Below the pieces are notes generated by a model. That model saw only the letters and a program-made list of their open reading frames with translations. It ran no database searches and had not been told where the DNA came from. A stretch of 20,000 nt of DNA from an uncultured virus (IMG/VR IMGVR_UViG_3300022914_000005) (Duplodnaviria > Heunggongvirae > Uroviricota > Caudoviricetes), in the IMG/VR virus record IMGVR_UViG_3300022914_000005; one strand, 5' to 3'. Shown here piece after piece: positions 1 to 10,859 of the stretch. Every line of letters begins with the position of its first letter. The first letter of the stretch is position 1. The position numbers and the translations under genes were made by a program.

Positions 1-3000
1 TGCCGGGCTGTACTCAGGCGAATCAAACATGTCGCCTTTAAACTCTTGTAGTCTTTCGACGTTGCTGACACGGTTAGGGTCATCAAACGCCGAGTCGTAG
101 ATGCCCGCAAGAATTATGTCGGCATCGACACCTGACATTTGAAGCGCTTCATAGAGCGCCTCAGCAGGCACAGTTTCATCTCCGTCTGAGAACTCAAGAT
201 TGCCGAGACCTTCAGCACGGTCCCCACTCTCGCTAGGCATGACAGCTTCGCGCAGAGCCTTGGCAAGCTCTTCCTGCGAAAATCTTGTCGAAAGCTCAGA
301 AGGATCGTCTGTGTAGTCTTCGCTTGTCTCATCGGTGCGACCACGGGGCTCGTACATCGAGTAGATGTCAACCTTGTGCGCGCCATCTGGGACCTCGAAC
401 ATCGAGTCAAACTCGCTCTCGAATTCTGGAGAAATCCCAGACGGAGTCTTAGACTCGCTTGGCATCGGCGAGATTTTGTCAATAGAGAACGTTCTCTCTT
501 CCATCTCGCCATCGACGTCTAAGAACCCGACGACGTTAGTTAGCCCGTTCTTCGGGTTACTGTAAATGCGACTTGGAGTAAACGTTCTCTCCTTGCCGCT
601 GTACATGAACCGAACTGTTCCGCCGGCCTCCATCGCGTCTTCTATTGCAGATCTAATGCCGAAGAAGCTCGTATCTGTAATATCAGCGGGCCCGCCAGTG
701 TATAGCTCTGGGTCTATGTCTGGAGTAACCCCGTCAAAGATGTCTGGGTCGCCGTCACCTTCGGTTAGTTTCTGGAAAAGCTCGGCGTTCTCCTCGTCAT
801 CGTTGCTGAAACGTGCGTTAAGTGCACCGTCAGTCTCAGCGTCGCCAAGGAAGCTGCGAGCCTCCTCTGGAGTCAGCCTAGGCTTATCAAACGTAACAAC
901 AACCTTGCGTTCATCGCCCATTCCAAGAGGAGACCCGTCAAGACTGTCGTACAGACTGTCATTCTCTTCGATGTACCCGCCGGCGTCATTAACACGCTTA
1001 ACGAGATCTTCGGTGAAGTCCTCTTCAACCATTGGGAACGCAATTTGAACGCCATCGCCCTTAGGCTTAGTGTTCATTGGGCTAAGCGGATCGCTGCCGT
1101 CACCTTCGGTCGGAGGCGTGATGTCGTCATCGGTTGGCTTGAAGAAGTCAAGAACCTCTTGGCCGAAGTTATCTCTGATCTCAGCGTCAAAGTCAGTAAC
1201 TGACGGATCGCTTGAGTCTGCTCTGAACGCGACCTCGACGTCTTCTTCAGCGTCCTCTGGCGCGCGAACAATGGCAGTGACAATGTAGTTGCCAGGGCTT
1301 GGCTCCTCAAGAAATACCTCAGCGAGCTCGCCTTCGTACTCTGCGCTTATTGAGCCCTCTCGGTACTCACTCGAGGATACGGGAACCTGGCCTTCTGGGG
1401 TCTTGCCTTCTACAATGTCCTCAAGTTCGCCGTAGAAATCTTCTGTATCGTCGTCACCGTAGTAGAACGAGATTTTGTCGAAGTCGGCAACGTCTTCCCA
1501 GGACACTCTTTGAGTATCTGGAGAAGAAAGTCTTACTCCGTTCTCGTCGTGAGTGTACGTTACGTCAAAGCCGTCTTCGTCAGACTCAGTTACTACGCCG
1601 TAACCGTTCGGGCCCTGGACAATTGTCGCAATTCCTCTCTCGAGTTCGTCTTTTTCGGAAGGTTGGCGATCTACTTTCTTGAGAGTGGTGCCAGGTCTGC
1701 CTGTTTCGTCGCCTTTTGACTTGTCGTAGTCGATGACGCGGTCCATGACGTCTGTGATTTGAGAGTCCCTGCTTGGAGTTTCAGCAGCAGGTTTGCCGGA
1801 GTCAAGCTCGGGGAAGAACATGCCAGCCTGACCAGGCCTGTAGACCGTGTAGCCCTCATCGCCAGCAGCGTAGTCCCCATAGTACTTGGGCTTTCTTGGC
1901 CCACTCTTAGCAACTTCGTAGCCGCGGGACTGTAACTCCGCGATAATGGAACTAGCAGAGTACTCAGACTTATCCGCAAACAGTGAATAGCCTCTGTCAA
2001 ACGGTCTCTCCGCTCTCTTGCCATGTTTTGCGAGCTCCGCCATGAGCTCTTCGTCTGTCATCTGCTCGAGCTCTTTAGCCTTCTTGTCGTCGCGCTTTGG
2101 CCGAGGCTTCACTGGCTTCACTGGGGGGAAGAGATCACGTCTCTCCTCCTCAAGGAACTTTTCTATAGCTTTTCGAGCATCTCTCTCTGCGCGCTCTGCT
2201 TCTTTCTTTTCGCGCTCTTCTTCTTTTCTTCTCTCTTCGACAATTCTTGAGGTGTCCATCGGGCTAATCGGGTAGCCATCTGGAAACACGTCTTTTGGAA
2301 ATACACCTGGCTCATCAGCACGACTGTTTATCCACTTACGCCATTCCTCGTAAGTCATGTCTCGTGGGCCTGCGCCAATTTGATTCTTCCACGCCTCGTA
2401 CGCCTCGCGGGAGTCGTCAAACATTTTTTCTCCGCTAGGGAAACGCGCCTCAGCAGCGTCTACCTCGCGGGCACCCTCTACAATCCTCTCGAGTTCACCA
2501 TAGAAATCTTCTTGCTCCTCGGGTCTGAATGAAACTTCTTGGAAGTCCTCAGTGACGTCTCCCCAGGCAACTGTCCGAGTTTCTGGAGAATCAAGTTTGT
2601 TCCCGTCCCTGTCGTGCGTGTACAGGATGTCGATGCCGTCGTCATCTATATCGGTGATTAGGCCAGAGCCGTTTGGCTCACTGACAATTGTCGCAATATC
2701 ATTCTCGATTTCCTCTCGTTCGAGGACATCCTCTCTTATGTAGTCAGATTTGAGAGCTCGATCTATAACGTCTGCAATTTGAGAGTCTCGGGTCGGGAAT
2801 TCAGTGGCACCCTCTGCGTCAGCAGCCTCCTGTAGAACCTTCTCATATGCCGGCGAGTCATCTTTCGCGGCGCGCTGCACGTCAGCCCACGACTTGCCGT
2901 CAGCGACCTTTTCGCCAATGGAGTTGTCTGTGAGATCAGCACGATGGAGACTGTAGTCTCCGGTCTCAAGATTCTTTCGAACGAAGTAGCCGTCATCAGA

Positions 3001-3981
3001 TACGAACTGCTCAAAGCCGGCGTCACCGCTATCTGCTCTCGACCACCCCGTGGGAGCGTCGAGACGACTGATTTCTCCTTCTCGAACGAGCGACTCGCGG
3101 CCGCCGGTAACTCTGTCGAGCTCTACCTCCGGGATCTCCTTAAGCGCTTCTCTCGAGATAATCGCCTTCGAAGACACGCCCTTTGACGAAGGGAGCGCGT
3201 AGATGCCGCCTGGAAGACTTGGGCTGTCAGTGATCTCGATCTCGATGTCATCGTCGCCAGACGCTCCAACAACACGTCCGGAGACTGAGAAAATGCTGCC
3301 ATCAAGATCTAAGTTGAAGCTAAAGCCGCCGCCCATGAAGGCGAATCGACCGTAACGATCGCGTCGCTGCATTCTCGCGCGAAGCGAGCGAGCAGCTCTT
3401 GAGTTGCCACCGATGCCGAAGCCACCAACAGCAACAATGCTAAGAGGCTCCGGAGCAATAGCGTCGTCGAGGCGCAGGTAAGTTGGCACAGCACCTGACG
3501 GCGCGACAGACAGACGGGTGAACGCGTGAACTCTCTCTGACGAGCCGGGGAACGCCGAGTACGCGGCTGAAACAAGCGCGCGATAGCTGTCATCAATGAA
3601 CGGGTCAGCCGCAAGCCAACGAGCATTCGCGTGACGAAGCGACGCGCTGTTCATCTTATGACTCTTTGTCGACGCCGGATGCGACACTGGAAGCAAATCG
3701 CAGTGACGCATCGACTGAGAAGTTTGTGTATTAGAAGTGCAGAGTGAGATAAACTGTGACACCTCGCGAAGAGCGTTGAACACTCTTACTCGAGGGTCGT
3801 GCGTCACTGTTCGCGCCAGTGAACGGTTCGCTACAGCAATCGCAGCAGCAACAGCAACTCTGCGCTCCGGAAGAACGCGGCTGTTCGCATCAGCAACAAG
3901 CGCAAGAACGTCGGTACGGATCTTTATTCCGTACTGATGAATGAACTTACTCTTTGCAACACTTCTGTTTCTTGTTTTCAC
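1..3981 (-). CDS. Giant acidic multidomain phage protein, 3' end beyond window (>1327 aa); probable virion-associated/head-internal protein
   Basis: Manual translation: GTG at 3981 overlaps the TGA of the upstream gene (GTGA), and the frame has no stop down to position 1 (MKTRNRSVAKSKFIHQYG...FDSPEYSPA). Contains an RDRYGRF motif, a duplicated domain (2473-2796 / 1405-1776) and a WYL-like segment (472-657). Lies downstream of the portal. Missing from the supplied ORF track. Confidence 0.9.
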   Translation of the reverse strand, partial: MKTRNRSVAKSKFIHQYGIKIRTDVLALVADANSRVLPERRVAVAAAIAVANRSLARTVTHDPRVRVFNALREVSQFISLCTSNTQTSQSMRHCDLLPVSHPASTKSHKMNSASLRHANARWLAADPFIDDSYRALVSAAYSAFPGSSERVHAFTRLSVAPSGAVPTYLRLDDAIAPEPLSIVAVGGFGIGGNSRAARSLRARMQRRDRYGRFAFMGGGFSFNLDLDGSIFSVSGRVVGASGDDDIEIEITDSPSLPGGIYALPSSKGVSSKAIISREALKEIPEVELDRVTGGRESLVREGEISRLDAPTGWSRADSGDAGFEQFVSDDGYFVRKNLETGDYSLHRADLTDNSIGEKVADGKSWADVQRAAKDDSPAYEKVLQEAADAEGATEFPTRDSQIADVIDRALKSDYIREDVLEREEIENDIATIVSEPNGSGLITDIDDDGIDILYTHDRDGNKLDSPETRTVAWGDVTEDFQEVSFRPEEQEDFYGELERIVEGAREVDAAEARFPSGEKMFDDSREAYEAWKNQIGAGPRDMTYEEWRKWINSRADEPGVFPKDVFPDGYPISPMDTSRIVEERRKEEEREKKEAERAERDARKAIEKFLEEERRDLFPPVKPVKPRPKRDDKKAKELEQMTDEELMAELAKHGKRAERPFDRGYSLFADKSEYSASSIIAELQSRGYEVAKSGPRKPKYYGDYAAGDEGYTVYRPGQAGMFFPELDSGKPAAETPSRDSQITDVMDRVIDYDKSKGDETGRPGTTLKKVDRQPSEKDELERGIATIVQGPNGYGVVTESDEDGFDVTYTHDENGVRLSSPDTQRVSWEDVADFDKISFYYGDDDTEDFYGELEDIVEGKTPEGQVPVSSSEYREGSISAEYEGELAEVFLEEPSPGNYIVTAIVRAPEDAEEDVEVAFRADSSDPSVTDFDAEIRDNFGQEVLDFFKPTDDDITPPTEGDGSDPLSPMNTKPKGDGVQIAFPMVEEDFTEDLVKRVNDAGGYIEENDSLYDSLDGSPLGMGDERKVVVTFDKPRLTPEEARSFLGDAETDGALNARFSNDDEENAELFQKLTEGDGDPDIFDGVTPDIDPELYTGGPADITDTSFFGIRSAIEDAMEAGGTVRFMYSGKERTFTPSRIYSNPKNGLTNVVGFLDVDGEMEERTFSIDKISPMPSESKTPSGISPEFESEFDSMFEVPDGAHKVDIYSMYEPRGRTDETSEDYTDDPSELSTRFSQEELAKALREAVMPSESGDRAEGLGNLEFSDGDETVPAEALYEALQMSGVDADIILAGIYDSAFDDPNRVSNVERLQEFKGDMFDSPEYSPA

Positions 3982-4649
3982 GACGTTGCCTCGCCTGTGT
4001 AACGTGGTAATAGATCTCGATCTCTGCTGTATCCTAGAAGTGTCACTAAATCCTTAGCACGGTCAAACGGGTTTTCGTCATTAGCGAGCGCGCGCTTCCA
4101 CGCGGCTCGAACGGATGGAATGAACTCGTAGCCGAAGCCCGAGTACTCGGCCATCGCAACAATTGCTTCCTCTGGAGATGCATACTCGCTCTCATCGAGA
4201 ATTTCAACAAACAACTCTTCATACACCGGGCGTGTACCTGCGGTAATCGCCGAAGCGTCTTTCTTTGACGACCTCGGATGCGTCGCCGGAAGAAGATCGT
4301 TATCTTGGGTGTAGTTTGGGTTTGACGGCTTACCGGAGCGAAGAAGCTTTAGATACGCGTTCACTCTTGCCATCGCCCATTGATCTCGTGTCTTGCCTGG
4401 GCGATGAGATGTTGAAAACGCGCCTGCACCGCGGCGGTACACCGCCTTGAGCTGCCCCATCGTCGCCTTACGGCCAGCAGACGCCTTCTTATTGTGCTCC
4501 TGCATCTTGTTGCGAAGAGCTTTTTCAGTCTTGTCTGAAAACTTTATTTTCTTAGCGTTCTTTGCCTTTGCTGAACCAGGCTTATTTTTCTTTGAGCCCT
4601 TGATTCTCTCACTCGGCTTCGCCGGAACACTGCTACTCTTTGCCATCAC
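3978..4649 (-). CDS. Conserved phage head-region protein with LKAVYRRGAGAF..SHRPG..QWAMARV motif (DUF5824-like)
   Basis: 223-aa ORF translationally coupled to the portal (GTGA overlap). Basic N-terminus. Motif recalled from phage and giant-virus proteins. Confidence 0.75.
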   Translation of the reverse strand: MMAKSSSVPAKPSERIKGSKKNKPGSAKAKNAKKIKFSDKTEKALRNKMQEHNKKASAGRKATMGQLKAVYRRGAGAFSTSHRPGKTRDQWAMARVNAYLKLLRSGKPSNPNYTQDNDLLPATHPRSSKKDASAITAGTRPVYEELFVEILDESEYASPEEAIVAMAEYSGFGYEFIPSVRAAWKRALANDENPFDRAKDLVTLLGYSRDRDLLPRYTGEATS

Positions 4650-6340
4650 TGCGCCTCCGGTGGCTGTGGTGATTCTGGTTCTACGCCCTGCTGAGGCTCC
4701 GATGCCTGAGGCGGCGCTCCTTGAAGAAGTTGCTCGAGGCCGGGCGGCATCGGCGCGACACTCTGCGCCTGTTGTGCTGCTTTAGCCGCCTCGAGAGCTT
4801 CAGGCGCGAACGCTCCAATCATCGCTTCAGTGAGCTCTGGAGTGATCATGCCTTTCTCGAAGACGAGACGCATCGCGACCTCCTGAGGAGTCGGCGCATC
4901 TGAATCACTGAAACCGTGAGTCTTACGCCAGGTGTCAAACGACACCGCCATGCGATCAAAGCCGCTATCAGCGTCTGCCGCGCGGTCATTACGAGTCGCA
5001 ACGGCGCTTGGGTCAAACCAAACAACGATGCGCTCGACCTCTGTCTTATCGAAGCCGTTTGCAATCAGATAAGGACGAAGATATACAACGGTGAGCGCGT
5101 CGGCGATCAAAAGCATCAACGGCTCGATATGCGCCTTGTACAGTGACTCGTCGATCTGAAGAGCGTTCGAGTACTTCACGTTCGCAAGACCGGTGATGAT
5201 GTCCTTTGGCACATCGAGGCCCTGAAGAATTCTCTCGAGCACACGGTCAGCACGCTGCGCAAGTGCTGGGTCAAATGAACGCTCGAACTTAAACTGCTTA
5301 ATGCGATCGCCAAGTTCAGCAGGCCCACGAATAATCAGCGGAACAACGGCACTGGCGCTATCCTCGTCTCGGATCGGTGTCGTCATCGCATCGATGAGTT
5401 GATCCTCGAATTCGTCACCCATCTCCTCGGGTGTCGCCTCCGGGTACATGTCGGTCGGATCGTCAAACGGGTAGTCGGGGTCCGGAGACGCCGCGACACT
5501 AAGCCCGTCCGGAAGATACAACGCACCAGCGTTCAGACGAGAACGAGCGGTCGCACGGAATGTTCTGTTCAGAAGCAGAAGCTCGGCGCAAAGATCAAGA
5601 AGACCGCGCAAGCTCGAATCAGCCTCGTCAGAGAATCTGGGGTGCGCGCGCCAAATGCGACCAATAAACGCATTTCCCGGAAGAAGAACAAGACCTTGCT
5701 TTTGGTTCATGCTGCCGTTTCCACCAAGAATGTCCCGGCGAGGCGCAATTCCGTAGTTGTTCTTTTGGTCGATCTGTACCTCGTCAACTGAGCGAATGTC
5801 CCACGATTCTGGAGTGCCGGAGCCTGGCTTCGCTGGCATCTGAACGAGATAGCACTCGCCGGAGACGCTCAGGTTTAGTGCCGCATCTCGAATCAAACCA
5901 GCCTGACCACCGTACGCCGAGTCAAGACGGCTTAGCGCGCGCTCAGCGGCGCGTGCAAGCCTCTCGTCAACACGTGAGCTTGTACGCACCGAGATCGGAG
6001 TCTCCGCTGGATTATCAACTGTCGCCGCGTAGATACGAATTCTTGACGCAACGGACGCAACAAGATTGAATGCGTACTTCACCTCGCCGATTGCGTCGTA
6101 GTACTCCCACGCCTCGCTCTGCCATGCGCTTGAATGAGCCTGGCGAGTAGCCTTGAACTTCTCGGCCTCGCTTCGATCGTTCAGACGAAGCTGAGTCGCG
6201 GCCGCGGTTAGTGTTCTCGGAGTCGAGTACGCCGCGGGTCGAGCAGGTGTGTACCCGGGAGGAAGAGCCGTCACAGGTGACGGAAGAGACGGTGGTGTGT
6301 ATCGTCGTGACCTAGCAACTTCTCGGCGGTATACGCCCAC
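4646..6340 (-). CDS. Portal protein (actinophage type)
   Basis: ~564 aa. Motifs WQSEAWEYYDAIGEVKYA, NLSVSGECYLV, RIWRAHPRFSDEADSS, SASAVVPLII and GLDVPKDIITG are typical of actinophage portals. Follows a DUF1360-like gene. Start moved to GTG 6340 after GAGGAG RBS. Confidence 0.85.
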   Translation of the reverse strand: MGVYRREVARSRRYTPPSLPSPVTALPPGYTPARPAAYSTPRTLTAAATQLRLNDRSEAEKFKATRQAHSSAWQSEAWEYYDAIGEVKYAFNLVASVASRIRIYAATVDNPAETPISVRTSSRVDERLARAAERALSRLDSAYGGQAGLIRDAALNLSVSGECYLVQMPAKPGSGTPESWDIRSVDEVQIDQKNNYGIAPRRDILGGNGSMNQKQGLVLLPGNAFIGRIWRAHPRFSDEADSSLRGLLDLCAELLLLNRTFRATARSRLNAGALYLPDGLSVAASPDPDYPFDDPTDMYPEATPEEMGDEFEDQLIDAMTTPIRDEDSASAVVPLIIRGPAELGDRIKQFKFERSFDPALAQRADRVLERILQGLDVPKDIITGLANVKYSNALQIDESLYKAHIEPLMLLIADALTVVYLRPYLIANGFDKTEVERIVVWFDPSAVATRNDRAADADSGFDRMAVSFDTWRKTHGFSDSDAPTPQEVAMRLVFEKGMITPELTEAMIGAFAPEALEAAKAAQQAQSVAPMPPGLEQLLQGAPPQASEPQQGVEPESPQPPEAQ

Positions 6341-6401
6341 AACCTTCTCCTCGTCTCGTGACGGAGTCAACTAAGATTCATATGTCCGGCGAACCGGGAA
6401 A

Positions 6402-9437: not shown

Positions 9438-10859
9438 TTACCGTACTGTAAATACTCTACCACCTCTGCCCGTTGACGACTGCCCTCCACGGAACGCTGG
9501 CAGTCTTCTTGACGCGACAGACTTGGCAGTGATCGTGCCTCCGACAAAACCTTTCGGCGGTTTGATGAGCAGCGCGGTGAGCGCGTGTACGAGCGCGTCG
9601 ATTCTGTCTGGCGACTTCCCCTCGCCGGGAATCCACGCGATCATCTGCGACTCGAGCTCCGGAAGGTAGTTGATGTGGTGGACTCGGTTCTGTTCGTACG
9701 CGAGCGTAACTGGTTCGGCGCGAAGCGCCTTGCCATGTTTCGAGTGTACCTCGAGAACCTTGATCGACGGGTCGATTGCGAGGATGGCGTTCGTGACAAG
9801 GGCGCCGCCCTGGTTGACTTCTGCCACGACAGGGCACGAGTACTTTCGCGCCATCTCGACGACCTTGTTCGCCCATTGCTCAGGTGAGCCGTGGATACTT
9901 GCGTCCTCGAGAACCCACGCGTTGCGTTTGTACAGATCTCGCTCGCCTGTCGACGCGCAGACGACAATCCCGCACTCGTCTCTTGGGTTCTCGGCGACTG
10001 ACGGGTCGACACCAACTACTCTGAGTGGCGCCGAGTGCGGGAACCCGGTTTCTCTCGATCGTTCGATGAGTTCATCTGTCCAGAGCGCGCCTTCGACGTC
10101 GGAGAGCATCTCGCCGTAGAGCTCCTGCGCAGCAAGCCGCGTTCCAGCGTAGACACCGGTGATCGCGTCGAGATACGTCGACGAAAGGTTGCCGGCGTTG
10201 TCAAGCGTCGATCCTCTCGAGATGCGAACGTTGTAACCCTTCTCGGATTCCGCAAGCAGCGAGTACAGAACCGGCACGCGTTTCGGCGTGGTCGTGCAGA
10301 TGATCTGTGGCGCCTTCCCAAGACGAGTGGCGACGCGAAGGTTGTCCCACGATGTCATTCCAGCCGCGTCCGGCGACTGCCGCCATGCCGCGATCTCGTC
10401 TGCCCAGGCGTAGTGGAACTGCGGACCACGAAGGCCGTCTGGTTCGTCCGCGGTGAAGCACGTCGCGGTGTTTCCGTTCGGCCACGTCAGTCGTCGCTTC
10501 GACGGCTCGTACAGTGGGCGCTCGCTCGGCGGCGAGACGCTGATGATCCCAGACTCGCCCTCGACGATGACGTCACGCACGTCAGCCGCAGTACGTGCGA
10601 CGAGCGCGAAACGTATTTGACCCTGCGAAGTGTCCTTCGCCTTCTCACGGACCCACTCGGCGGCTGATCGCGTCTTGCCGGCGCCTCTGCCCGCGAGGTA
10701 CATCCAAATTGACCAATCGGTTCCGTCAGGCGGTAGCTGTTCGGGCCTCGCCCAGGCTCGCCAGTCCCAAACGAGCGCGTCCATGTCTACTCCGTCGAGC
10801 AGCGCGGCGCGTTCTTCGTCTGGGAGCAGGGCGAGCCGCTCCATCATGCTCTTGCCCAT
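9438..10859 (-). CDS. terL: Terminase large subunit
   Basis: Walker A AGRGAGKT, Walker B YAWADE, coupling motif TTTP, nuclease VVGVDP and SPDRIDAL. TGa-TACAAT 6 nt before ATG. Confidence 0.95.
   Translation of the reverse strand: MGKSMMERLALLPDEERAALLDGVDMDALVWDWRAWARPEQLPPDGTDWSIWMYLAGRGAGKTRSAAEWVREKAKDTSQGQIRFALVARTAADVRDVIVEGESGIISVSPPSERPLYEPSKRRLTWPNGNTATCFTADEPDGLRGPQFHYAWADEIAAWRQSPDAAGMTSWDNLRVATRLGKAPQIICTTTPKRVPVLYSLLAESEKGYNVRISRGSTLDNAGNLSSTYLDAITGVYAGTRLAAQELYGEMLSDVEGALWTDELIERSRETGFPHSAPLRVVGVDPSVAENPRDECGIVVCASTGERDLYKRNAWVLEDASIHGSPEQWANKVVEMARKYSCPVVAEVNQGGALVTNAILAIDPSIKVLEVHSKHGKALRAEPVTLAYEQNRVHHINYLPELESQMIAWIPGEGKSPDRIDALVHALTALLIKPPKGFVGGTITAKSVASRRLPAFRGGQSSTGRGGRVFTVR

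What the first reader, a model, noticed from the sequence alone, without database searches (positions are those of the whole stretch)
472..657. WYL-like domain embedded in the giant phage protein
Seen: IRSAIEDAMEAGGTVRFMYSGKERTFTPSRIYSNPKNGLTNVVGFLDVDGEMEERTFSIDKI. It follows the WYL pattern (helix..V.F.Y...R...P..(I/L)....G......R.F.(L/I)D(R/K)I) but has TNVVG in place of WYL. Known: WYL domains sense single-stranded nucleic acids in regulators of DNA-damage response and anti-phage defence (PafBC, DriD, BrxR, CapW). Inference: a stand-alone WYL module in a putative virion protein could bind nucleic acid or act as a decoy for host WYL signalling.
Basis: partly seen in the sequence, partly recalled or inferred. 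Interest (0 to 1): 0.72.

Follow-up and report, generated by a model that had tools for sequence, protein, structure and literature searches.

The report
WYL-type barrel in giant phage protein
A 65-residue stretch of a 5,188-residue phage protein is a divergent copy of the WYL ligand-binding barrel that bacteria use to sense DNA damage and phage attack, here carried by the virus itself without the usual partner domains.

Summary
The peptide is real. It is encoded on the minus strand (657 to 472) as residues 1109-1170 of a giant gene that starts at window 3981 and runs off the window. A longer record of the same virus gives 5,188 aa. The gene lies between the portal and the protease/capsid genes of an uncultured phage related to actinobacterial phages.

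Three lines identify a divergent WYL (Sm-like) domain:
- PF13280 is the only Pfam hit of the segment, below its cut-off. 25 of 28 family members hit PF13280 when scanned as isolated domains, and 8 of 21 whole relatives pass the cut-off.
- A family profile finds WYL regulators (PafBC, DriD) as its eight best PDB sequences.
- An AlphaFold model (pLDDT 85) matches CapW, BrxR, PafBC and DriD best (Z 7.7-9.1), ahead of Hfq (about 6).

The module occurs in 1-4 copies in related giant multi-enzyme proteins. I detected no HTH and no WCX domain. Part of the canonical ligand face is kept (β1 Tyr, Phe, one basic residue). The WYL tyrosine is Asn and one essential arginine is Ser.

Best reading: a nucleic-acid or nucleotide-binding grip inside a probably injected polyvalent protein. 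This is inferred, not shown. The decoy idea stays open but unlikely. It is a new variant of a known kind, of moderate interest.

The parts
463..663 (-). WYL-type (Sm-like) barrel: N-terminal helix plus bent strands, residues about 1107-1173 of the giant protein.
   Evidence: Peptide located. AF2 model pLDDT 85.2 with helix 8-20 and strands 24-28, 31-42, 49-57, 60-67 of the 79-aa query. My family HMM envelope is 1110-1173. PF13280 is the only Pfam hit. PDB profile and fold matches are to WYL proteins.
1..3981 (-). First 1,327 codons of the giant polyvalent-protein gene. GTG start at 3981, overlapping the upstream gene's end by 4 bases. The gene continues beyond the window to 5,188 aa.
   Evidence: ORF list and translation. 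Continuation in the same virus record. Full length from a 109.8-kb record with an identical 4,721-aa prefix. Beyond the window Pfam finds RNase_T exonuclease 2020-2199, UvrD helicase 2344-2914 and NUDIX 4288-4405.
22..438 (-). Conserved domain directly after the barrel (residues about 1182-1320): helices plus one beta hairpin, family unknown, not WCX-like.
   Evidence: Conserved in 19 of 29 other module-bearing proteins by phmmer. AF2 model of residues 1095-1345 has pLDDT 83.2 and pTM 0.56. In Foldseek only the WYL part of the model superposes on PDB chains (TMq about 0.22). No Pfam hit at E<=0.05.
3978..4649 (-). 223-aa gene between the portal gene and the giant gene (DUF5824).
   Evidence: PF19141 at E 4.6e-10.
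4646..6370 (-). Portal protein gene (574 aa). It places the giant gene in the head-assembly module.
   Evidence: phrog_776 portal protein at E 1e-104. Weak Pfam Phage_portal hit.
9438..10859 (-). Large terminase subunit gene (473 aa).
   Evidence: Terminase_6N at 5e-21 and Terminase_6C at 6e-10. 84% identical to the terminase of Actinomycetia phage DSL-LC01.

Best explanation
Residues about 1107-1173 form a divergent member of the WYL-domain superfamily: an Sm-like small beta barrel with an N-terminal helix. It is one module of a 5,188-aa polyvalent protein encoded between the portal and the protease/capsid genes of an uncultured phage related to actinobacterial phages. The protein is probably packed into the head and injected with the DNA. 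The barrel most likely serves as a ligand grip for a short stretch of single-stranded nucleic acid or a nucleotide-derived ligand. It would hold the chain's enzymes (3'-5' exonuclease, SF1 helicase, Nudix, ART-like modules) on their substrate, much as the WYL domain of Thermotoga elfii PIF1 helicase is reported to bind ssDNA. Relatives carry 1-4 such barrels in a row, which would add avidity. SHOWN here: the fold, the homology to WYL domains, the absence of a detectable HTH or WCX, the gene context, and the family's restriction to giant phage proteins. INFERRED: ligand binding, the kind of ligand, packaging and injection.
For: Identity:
- PF13280 is the only Pfam hit of the segment.
- 25 of 28 family members hit PF13280 at E<=10, best 9.1e-7, while each of 24 other families was hit by a single member.
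- PF13280 passes its 21.8-bit cut-off in 8 of 21 relatives scanned whole.
- The eight best PDB sequences for the family profile are all WYL proteins: PafBC 6sj9 at 5.6e-5, plus the DriD and PafBC chains 7u02, 7tzv, 7p5x, 9fnd, 9cu3, 9pfq and 8tp8 at up to 9.7e-4.
- The model (pLDDT 85.2) has WYL regulators in Foldseek ranks 1-12 (TMq 0.62-0.69) and VIA-align ranks 1-11 (Z 7.7-9.1), against 6.1-6.3 for Hfq.

Binding function:
- Across 74 copies the most conserved non-glycine, non-proline positions are aromatic, basic or polar: F .95, Y .92, K .81, R .86, N .81, K .77, N .76, R/K .96, F/Y .95, K .72.
- The module has mean net charge +1 inside a protein with 529 K+R against 942 D+E.
- Y28, F66 and K70 align with PafB residues needed for function or ssDNA binding: the beta1 His/Tyr, F210 and R214.
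- WYL domains without WCX occur with helicases, and the PIF1 WYL domain is reported to bind ssDNA (passages of PMC6789036).

Context:
- Gene order is portal, 223-aa gene, giant gene, protease-like 1,375-aa gene, major head protein, then tail genes.
- One relative with the same module carries MPTase-PolyVal and ArdC-N, the hallmark polyvalent-protein domains.
Against: - No binding was measured or modelled.
- The window's copy scores only 12-13 bits against PF13280, below the 21.8-bit cut-off.
- A six-frame PF13280 search of the virus record found nothing at E<=10.
- No Foldseek match reached E<=0.001; the best was 5e-3.
- The ligand face is only partly canonical. [quoted passage not shown] PafB R211, one of the two arginines whose joint mutation abolishes ssDNA binding, is Ser67. 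If TNV equals the WHV of CapW's RWHVR motif, the two flanking ssDNA-contacting arginines are Leu48 and Val52.
- In the regulators ssDNA sits in a crevice or tunnel formed together with WCX domains, and no WCX is detectable here.
- The window's copy has net charge -2.
- The barrel lies about 850 residues before the exonuclease and about 1,170 before the helicase. Only 12 and 11 of 29 other module-bearing proteins have recognisable exonuclease and helicase blocks, so the link to those enzymes is loose.
- Virion packaging rests on gene position alone.
Confidence: 0.55

Rival explanations
1. Cis sensor: the barrel binds a small nucleotide-derived or nucleic-acid signal inside the infected cell and switches on or positions the enzyme modules of the same chain allosterically. 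This would be the role WYL plays in transcription factors, with enzymes as output instead of an HTH.
For: In every characterised regulator the WYL domain is the ligand-sensing input (abstracts and sections read of PMC11662680, PMC6789036 and PMC11804915). Makarova et al. 2014 report WYL fusions to enzymatic domains (passage). The altered ligand face (Asn for Tyr, a family-specific NPK.G loop) would fit a ligand other than ssDNA.
Against: The copy number varies from 1 to 4 in otherwise collinear proteins, and the distance to the enzymes is large and variable, which is hard to reconcile with a fixed allosteric coupling. The model gives no defined packing against the next domain (pTM 0.56, linker pLDDT below 50).
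Confidence: 0.15
2. Decoy or sponge: the injected barrels soak up the ssDNA or nucleotide cue that host WYL regulators read (PafBC for the DNA-damage response; BrxR/CapW-type repressors of defence systems), so the host's alarm is not raised.
For: Host WYL regulators are switched by ssDNA, and restricted phage infection is a natural cue (preprint PMC13622015, passages). Actinobacteria average about 5.2 WYL proteins per genome (PMC6789036 passage), and the phage's nearest relatives are predicted or known actinobacterial phages. The protein would arrive with the DNA, at the right time.
Against: A virion can carry only a few copies of a 570-kDa protein, with one barrel each in this phage. That is too little to titrate ssDNA fragments stoichiometrically (my inference). 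Key ssDNA-binding residues of the regulators are not kept, and the WCX half of the regulators' pocket is not detectable. No paper found describes a phage WYL decoy.
Confidence: 0.1
3. Non-ligand role: a generic small beta barrel used as a spacer, a protein-protein contact or an anchor to packaged dsDNA inside the capsid (Sso7d/Sac7d-like or SH3-like use), with the WYL ancestry no longer relevant to function.
For: The family profile also gives partial hits to Sac7d/Sso7d dsDNA-binding proteins (E 6.2e-3 and weaker, 37 of 75 profile positions), and one member hits Pfam 7kD_DNA_binding at E 0.083. Designed SH3 barrels score Z 7.5. Copy number is variable, as with spacer repeats.
Against: WYL proteins score better and over the whole module including the helix. 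Conservation is concentrated in exposed-type polar, basic and aromatic residues across very divergent copies. In the tree, copies group by type across proteins rather than within one protein (62 columns, supports not inspected), which suggests each type is kept for a function.
Confidence: 0.15

Closest known systems
WYL domains of the HTH-WYL-WCX transcription regulators (PafBC, DriD, BrxR, CapW; Pfam PF13280)
   Same: Same fold (helix plus bent beta strands). These are the best structural matches (Z 7.7-9.1, rmsd 1.7-4.9 A over 64-70 residues) and the best sequence-profile matches. Shared motif skeleton: [IV]xFxY in beta1, RxxxP in beta2, a G-rich turn, then [RK]xFxxx[KR][IM].
   Different: No HTH before it and no detectable WCX after it. 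T-N-V stands in place of W-Y-L. PafB R211 is Ser/Thr here. The beta2-beta3 loop is 2 residues longer in the PafB alignments and carries a family-specific N-P-K-x-G signature. It sits in a 5,188-aa viral multi-enzyme chain and, in relatives, in arrays of up to four.
WYL domain fused to helicases without WCX (class J of Müller et al. 2019; Thermotoga elfii PIF1)
   Same: A WYL barrel without HTH or WCX in a polypeptide that contains an SF1 helicase. In PIF1 it is reported as an accessory ssDNA-binding module (passages of PMC6789036). This is the closest working analogy.
   Different: Here the helicase is UvrD-type and lies about 1,170 residues away, with many other modules between. Only 11 of 29 other module-bearing proteins have the helicase block. 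I made no direct comparison with PIF1 sequences or structures.
Polyvalent proteins of phages and conjugative elements (Iyer et al. 2017, PMC5512222)
   Same: A giant multi-domain protein encoded among head genes. A relative with the same module has MPTase-PolyVal and ArdC-N. Exonuclease, helicase, Nudix and ART-type modules sit in one chain.
   Different: In the passages shown for that paper, WYL is named only as a host sensor domain (2 occurrences, one of them shown). I saw no WYL module listed as a component of polyvalent proteins, but I did not read its figures or supplements.
Hfq / Sm proteins
   Same: Same Sm-like barrel topology (Z 5-6.3). Loop residues serve as the nucleotide-binding site in that fold.
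   Different: Lower scores than the WYL proteins and no sequence-profile match. Ring formation was not tested.

Membership tests
WYL-domain superfamily (Sm-like SH3 barrel; sense of Makarova et al. 2014) | Significant sequence-profile relationship to established WYL domains | tested here: met
   The family profile (28 sequences) finds 8 WYL proteins as its best PDB sequences, at E 5.6e-5 to 9.7e-4. 25 of 28 members hit PF13280. 8 of 21 whole relatives pass Pfam's cut-off. These relatives match the window's copy at E down to 1e-53.
WYL-domain superfamily (Sm-like SH3 barrel; sense of Makarova et al. 2014) | Fold: N-terminal helix followed by strongly bent beta strands forming an Sm-like barrel | tested here: met
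   AF2 model with pLDDT 85.2, helix 8-20 and four long strands plus a short C-terminal one. The best PDB matches are WYL domains in Foldseek ranks 1-12 and VIA ranks 1-11. This is a prediction, not a solved structure.
WYL-domain superfamily (Sm-like SH3 barrel; sense of Makarova et al. 2014) | Basic and aromatic residues lining the ligand groove (beta1 Tyr/His, Tyr of the triplet, Phe and two Arg of the beta4/beta5 loop) | tested here: inconclusive
   By alignment to PafB: Y28, F66 and K70 (for R214) are kept, and R64 (for R208) is kept. N50 replaces the Tyr and S67 replaces R211. Five basic positions are conserved in the family.
Pfam PF13280 by its curated cut-off, single sequence | Score of at least 21.8 bits for this sequence | tested here: not met
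   12.3-13.4 bits, E 0.08-0.18. No hit when the whole 4,721-aa protein was scanned at E<=1. A six-frame search of the record found none. This is an operational threshold, not a property of the domain.
WYL-domain superfamily | Eponymous Trp-Tyr-Leu triplet in beta3 | tested here: not met
   Thr49-Asn50-Val51 align with W-Y-L. The triplet is not a defining feature of the superfamily: Makarova et al. state it is not strongly conserved (passage), CapW has WHV, and the aligned DriD sequence shows NYL.
HTH-WYL-WCX one-component regulators (PafBC, DriD, BrxR, CapW) | DNA-binding (winged) HTH domain N-terminal to the WYL domain | tested here: not met
   No HTH family appears in Pfam scans of the whole protein (E<=1) or of 350-aa pieces (E<=0.05). 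There is only a sub-threshold LEM hit at residues 638-654.
HTH-WYL-WCX one-component regulators (PafBC, DriD, BrxR, CapW) | Ferredoxin-like WCX domain directly after the WYL domain | tested here: inconclusive
   The confidently modelled next domain is helices plus one hairpin. Long Foldseek alignments to DriD and PafBC have rmsd 16-18 A and TMq 0.22, so only the WYL part superposes. A very divergent WCX cannot be excluded by these tools.
Polyvalent proteins (Iyer et al. 2017) | Several unrelated effector or enzyme domains in one polypeptide of a phage or conjugative element | tested here: met
   RNase_T exonuclease, UvrD helicase, NUDIX and the WYL-type barrel lie in one ORF. Relatives add ADP-ribosyltransferase, KTSC, PI3/PI4-kinase-like, MPTase-PolyVal and ArdC-N domains.
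Polyvalent proteins (Iyer et al. 2017) | Encoded among packaging or virion genes | tested here: met
   Order: terminase, portal, 223-aa gene, giant gene, protease-like gene, major head protein, major tail protein, tape measure. The layout is the same in DSL-LC01.
Polyvalent proteins (Iyer et al. 2017) | Packaged in the virion and delivered into the host | not testable with these tools
   This needs virion proteomics. No cultured phage with this protein was found: DSL-LC01 is metagenome-assembled, and the cultured Microbacterium phage A3Wally lacks the module.
Sso7d/Sac7d 7-kDa dsDNA-binding proteins | Full-length profile or fold match | tested here: inconclusive
   Only partial profile matches (positions 21-57 of 75, E 6.2e-3 and weaker) and Foldseek TMq about 0.3. 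These are weaker than the WYL matches.

The most novel reading that the evidence does not exclude
A lineage of phages related to actinobacterial phages has captured the host's own alarm-sensing barrel. It delivers the barrel, in arrays of up to four, inside an injected giant protein to intercept the ssDNA or nucleotide cue that switches on WYL-controlled responses (the PafBC DNA-damage regulon, WYL-repressed defence systems). That would make it a virion-borne 'signal sponge' aimed at defence regulation rather than at defence effectors.
Probability: 0.1. Interest if true: 0.85.

Novelty: new variant of a known kind. Interest (0 to 1): 0.5.

Why it matters
WYL domains are known as the sensing half of bacterial regulators that detect single-stranded DNA and switch on DNA-damage and anti-phage responses. 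Here the same barrel sits on the virus's side, stripped of its DNA-binding and WCX partners and multiplied up to four times, inside a probably injected multi-enzyme protein. This shows that the module works as a portable ligand grip outside transcription control. It also gives a defined, small and easily expressed target (about 70 residues) for asking what such giant phage proteins hold on to when they enter the cell. If the ligand turns out to be the cue the host's own WYL regulators read, this would be a new kind of counter-defence. If it is simply an ssDNA handle for the exonuclease and helicase, it still annotates a recurrent unlabelled block in a family of 2,000-7,400-residue proteins that databases call 'hypothetical'.

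Tried and rejected
- The + strand reading of 472-657 has stops.
- Megablast of window 1-4000 against 50,697 phage records found no match.
- PHROGs found no family for the segment at E<=1.
- A six-frame PF13280 search of the virus record found 0 matches at E<=10 and returned no loci from the control genomes. The planned profile-profile comparison with an alignment of canonical WYL domains was therefore not made.
With the single sequence it returned only 3 loci, all 100% identical over the part matched (the third covers only query residues 1-32).
- The search for homologous proteins with A1, lengths 'longer', searched only 141-2000 aa and found 4 proteins, 3 of them already known.
- tblastn of the module against the phage collection found 1 of 50,697 records, DSL-LC01.
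- The cultured Microbacterium phage A3Wally (terminase 62.8% identical) has a 1,913-aa gene at the same place, but no module (best 2.5 bits) and no phmmer similarity to the giant protein.
- Fold search with the WYL-plus-next-domain model identified nothing for the next domain.
- Sac7d/Sso7d and Hfq/Sm were considered as the closest kin and ranked below WYL.
- The ESM Atlas gave only leads: small viral clusters at 0.90-0.92, one with PF13280 in 27% of members.
- Look-ups of earlier findings by place and by sequence found nothing, and by words found nothing about WYL.
- The paper search 'WYL / MuF / ejection protein' returned noise.
- No complex-prediction job was run, because no protein-protein binding is claimed.
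Full report
OBSERVATION. The quoted peptide is encoded at window 472-657 on the minus strand. The + strand reading of these bases contains stops. The minus-strand ORF 3981..1 holds the peptide as residues 1109-1170.

THE GENE AND ITS GENOME. The window is part of a 52.7-kb linear virus record (estimated 33% complete). In that record the ORF continues for at least 4,721 codons and runs off the contig end. A 109.8-kb record of the same virus (82% complete) has an identical 4,721-residue prefix and gives the full length, 5,188 aa.

Pfam recognises an RNase_T-type exonuclease (2020-2199), a UvrD-type helicase (2344-2914) and a NUDIX domain (4288-4405). Scanning the protein whole or in 350-aa pieces gave no family for the first 2,000 residues.

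The gene order in the direction of transcription is:
- large terminase (window 9438-10859);
- a peptidoglycan-binding protein;
- portal (4646-6370, phrog_776, E 1e-104);
- a 223-aa DUF5824 protein;
- the giant gene;
- a 249-aa gene;
- a 1,375-aa protein with head-protease and portal-type PHROG hits;
- major head protein, major tail protein, head-tail adaptor and tape measure.

The terminase is 84% identical to that of Actinomycetia phage DSL-LC01 and about 62% identical to those of Microbacterium phages. DSL-LC01 is a metagenome-assembled lake phage whose authors predict an actinobacterial host (passages of PMC10611076). It has the same layout, with a 3,289-aa 'hypothetical protein' between portal and protease.

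IDENTITY BY SEQUENCE.
- Scanned alone, the segment gives PF13280 (WYL) as its only Pfam hit. The score is 12.3-13.4 bits (E 0.08-0.18) over profile positions 4-66 of 70, below the 21.8-bit cut-off.
- An exhaustive phmmer search of 1.84 billion representative proteins with residues 1095-1180 found 30 proteins at E<=1e-3 (15 at <=1e-10, 5 at <=1e-30). Most are 2,000-7,000 aa long and have several matching stretches.
- Two rounds of my own HMM over these proteins, the query protein and two relatives defined a 62-position module. It is present in 74 copies in 30 proteins: 6 with one copy, 12 with two, 4 with three and 8 with four. Three of the 30 representatives (P0017, P0021, P0024) dropped out; they had many short stretches.
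- I aligned one copy per protein (28 rows, A1; the near-duplicates P0005 and P0013 were left out). 25 of the 28 rows hit PF13280 at E<=10 (best 9.1e-7), while each of 24 other families was hit by only one row.
- Among 21 relatives scanned whole, PF13280 passes Pfam's cut-off in 8, is just below it in one (20.4 bits) and is not reported at E<=0.01 in 12.
- The A1 profile searched against all PDB sequences gives eight WYL proteins as its eight best hits: PafBC 6sj9 at 5.6e-5, then DriD and PafBC chains up to 9.7e-4. Weaker, partial matches to Sac7d/Sso7d follow.

IDENTITY BY STRUCTURE. AlphaFold2 with A1 as the alignment gives a confident model (pLDDT 85.2): a helix followed by long bent strands.
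- Foldseek against the PDB puts WYL proteins in ranks 1-12 (DriD, PafBC, BrxR), with CapW and the Cas13d-associated WYL1 close behind. TMq is 0.62-0.69. No E-value is below 0.001; the best is 5e-3.
- Realignment with VIA-align puts WYL regulators in ranks 1-11 at Z 7.7-9.1. The best is ssDNA-bound CapW 9c5g (Z 9.1, rmsd 2.7 A, 67 residues).
- A designed SH3 barrel scores 7.5, Hfq 6.1-6.3 and Sm proteins 5-6. The tool warns that Z below 8 can reflect a common arrangement only. Ten WYL entries are at 8.0 or above.

THE FAMILY.
- Collinearity. The giant proteins are collinear. The N-terminal 330 residues are shared by 23 of the 29 other module-bearing proteins. Then comes a variable stretch holding the 1-4 barrels, then a conserved block that I call, from sequence patterns, post-WYL, ART-like and kinase-like. 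The exonuclease follows in 12 of 29 and the helicase in 11 of 29 (phmmer with pieces of this protein).
- Companion domains. In some relatives a KTSC domain follows the array. One relative combines the module with MPTase-PolyVal and ArdC-N, the hub domains of polyvalent proteins.
- Copy types. In a FastTree of the copies (62 columns, P0005 and P0013 left out, supports not inspected), copies from one protein are scattered and group by type across proteins, except in P0029. This suggests old duplications followed by differential loss.
- This phage keeps a single copy. DSL-LC01 has two strong copies and one weak copy and is the only one of 50,697 GenBank phage records with a tblastn match. The cultured Microbacterium phage A3Wally lacks the module.

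THE LIGAND FACE. In PafBC the following are needed for function: the beta1 Tyr/His, the Tyr of the WYL triplet, and the Phe and two Arg of the beta4/beta5 loop (PMC6789036, section 8 read). PafB R211A/R214A abolishes ssDNA binding (PMC11804915, passages).

In the HMMER alignment to M. smegmatis PafB the window's copy maps as follows:

| Window residue | PafB equivalent | Status |
|---|---|---|
| Y28 | beta1 His/Tyr | kept |
| R33, P37 | beta2 R...P | kept |
| T49-N50-V51 | W-Y-L | changed |
| R64 | R208 | kept |
| F66 | F210 | kept |
| S67 | R211 | lost |
| K70 | R214 | conservative |

CapW contacts ssDNA through S144, R164 and R168 (the RWHVR motif, where WHV equals WYL) and R184 (PMC11662680, section 15 read). 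By that equivalence, R164 and R168 correspond to L48 and V52 here. That mapping is my inference.

Across the 74 copies the strongly conserved positions are F, Y, K, R, P, N, K, G, N, G, R/K, F/Y and K. The mean net charge is +1, in a protein with 529 K+R against 942 D+E. The window's copy is -2.

So a conserved polar, basic and aromatic surface exists, but its chemistry differs from that of the ssDNA-sensing regulators.

PARTNERS. No HTH family is detectable upstream. Residues 1095-1345 were folded with nine relatives as the alignment (A2). The result has pLDDT 83.2 and pTM 0.56, with a low-confidence linker. The next domain consists of helices and one hairpin, not a ferredoxin-like WCX. In Foldseek only the WYL part of this model superposes on DriD, PafBC and CapW (TMq about 0.22; rmsd 16-18 A for the long alignments).

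HOW IT MOST LIKELY WORKS. Shown: this is a WYL-superfamily barrel, without the regulators' input-output partners, in a multi-enzyme protein encoded in the head module. Inferred: the protein is packaged and injected, as proposed for polyvalent proteins encoded among virion genes (PMC5512222, passages). The barrel would then bind a short single-stranded nucleic acid or a nucleotide-derived ligand and so tether or aim the chain. [quoted passage not shown] I give this 0.55. The decoy idea is attractive because host WYL regulators read ssDNA during infection. It is weakened by stoichiometry and by the altered ligand face.

NOVELTY. Makarova et al. 2014 already noted that the WYL triplet is poorly conserved, that WYL domains occur in multiple copies, and that they are fused to enzymes (passages). 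The principle is therefore known. What I did not find in print is a WYL module as a component of phage polyvalent or virion proteins:
- Full-text searches with 'polyvalent protein / WYL / phage', 'WYL domain / virion / anti-defense' and 'WYL / MuF / ejection protein...' gave none.
- The passages shown from PMC5512222, PMC9503650, PMC7824862 and PMC13700489 mention WYL only as a host sensor or a defence-protein domain.
- I did not see those papers' figures or supplements.

Public annotation calls these proteins hypothetical. JGI names one fragment 'YafY', and one cluster has a precomputed PF13280 hit.

Verdict: a new variant of a known kind, of moderate interest.

LIMITS. All structure is predicted and no ligand was tested. 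Packaging rests on gene order. The module tree is short and its supports were not examined. The ART-like, kinase-like and SH3-like labels for other parts of the chain come from my reading of sequence patterns plus Pfam hits in relatives, not from hits in this protein. If that applied here, the barrel could be released on a smaller fragment. I did not test it.

Noticed in passing
window 22-438 (-), residues about 1182-1320: A conserved domain directly follows the barrel. It is shared by 19 of 29 other module-bearing proteins and folds confidently (helices plus one hairpin), but has no Pfam family and no PDB fold match beyond the WYL part of the model.
   Followed up: partly
window 2302-2694 (-) and 1237-1629 (-), residues about 430-560 and 785-915: Two copies of a roughly 130-residue internal repeat, seen only in this protein and in none of the other 33 proteins compared by phmmer. 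They sit where relatives carry extra WYL-type barrels.
   Followed up: no
window 2020-2070 (-), residues 638-654: A sub-threshold LEM (helix-extension-helix type) hit, at E 0.019-0.24 and 11-15 bits against a cut-off of 24, inside a very charged Lys/Glu-rich stretch. It may be another DNA-contact motif or chance.
   Followed up: no
window 3978-3981: The giant gene's GTG start overlaps the end of the upstream 223-aa DUF5824 gene by 4 bases, which suggests translational coupling.
   Followed up: no
L002 (same virus), residues about 1480-1700 and 3800-4010 of the giant protein; also 1710-1960: Two mutually similar blocks that look ART-like to me, and a block whose counterpart region in relatives (P0028, P0030) gives PI3_PI4_kinase hits. 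None is recognised by Pfam in this protein.
   Followed up: partly
whole giant protein (P0002): Extreme acidity: 942 Asp+Glu against 529 Lys+Arg in 4,721 residues.
   Followed up: no
relatives P0011, P0014, P0015, P0019, P0031: A KTSC domain (PF13619) follows the WYL-type array, with three stretches in P0031. It was not detected in this phage's protein.
   Followed up: no
L008 12323-16450 (-), downstream of the giant gene in the 109.8-kb record: A 1,375-aa protein whose C-terminal part hits both 'portal protein' and 'head maturation protease' PHROGs (E 1e-95 and 8e-57). It is an unusually large protease-region protein before the major head protein.
   Followed up: no
ESM Atlas clusters (no coordinates): The nearest clusters by language-model features are small viral hypothetical proteins of 82-98 aa (scores 0.90-0.92), one cluster with PF13280 in 27% of members. 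Stand-alone viral WYL-like mini-proteins may exist.
   Followed up: no
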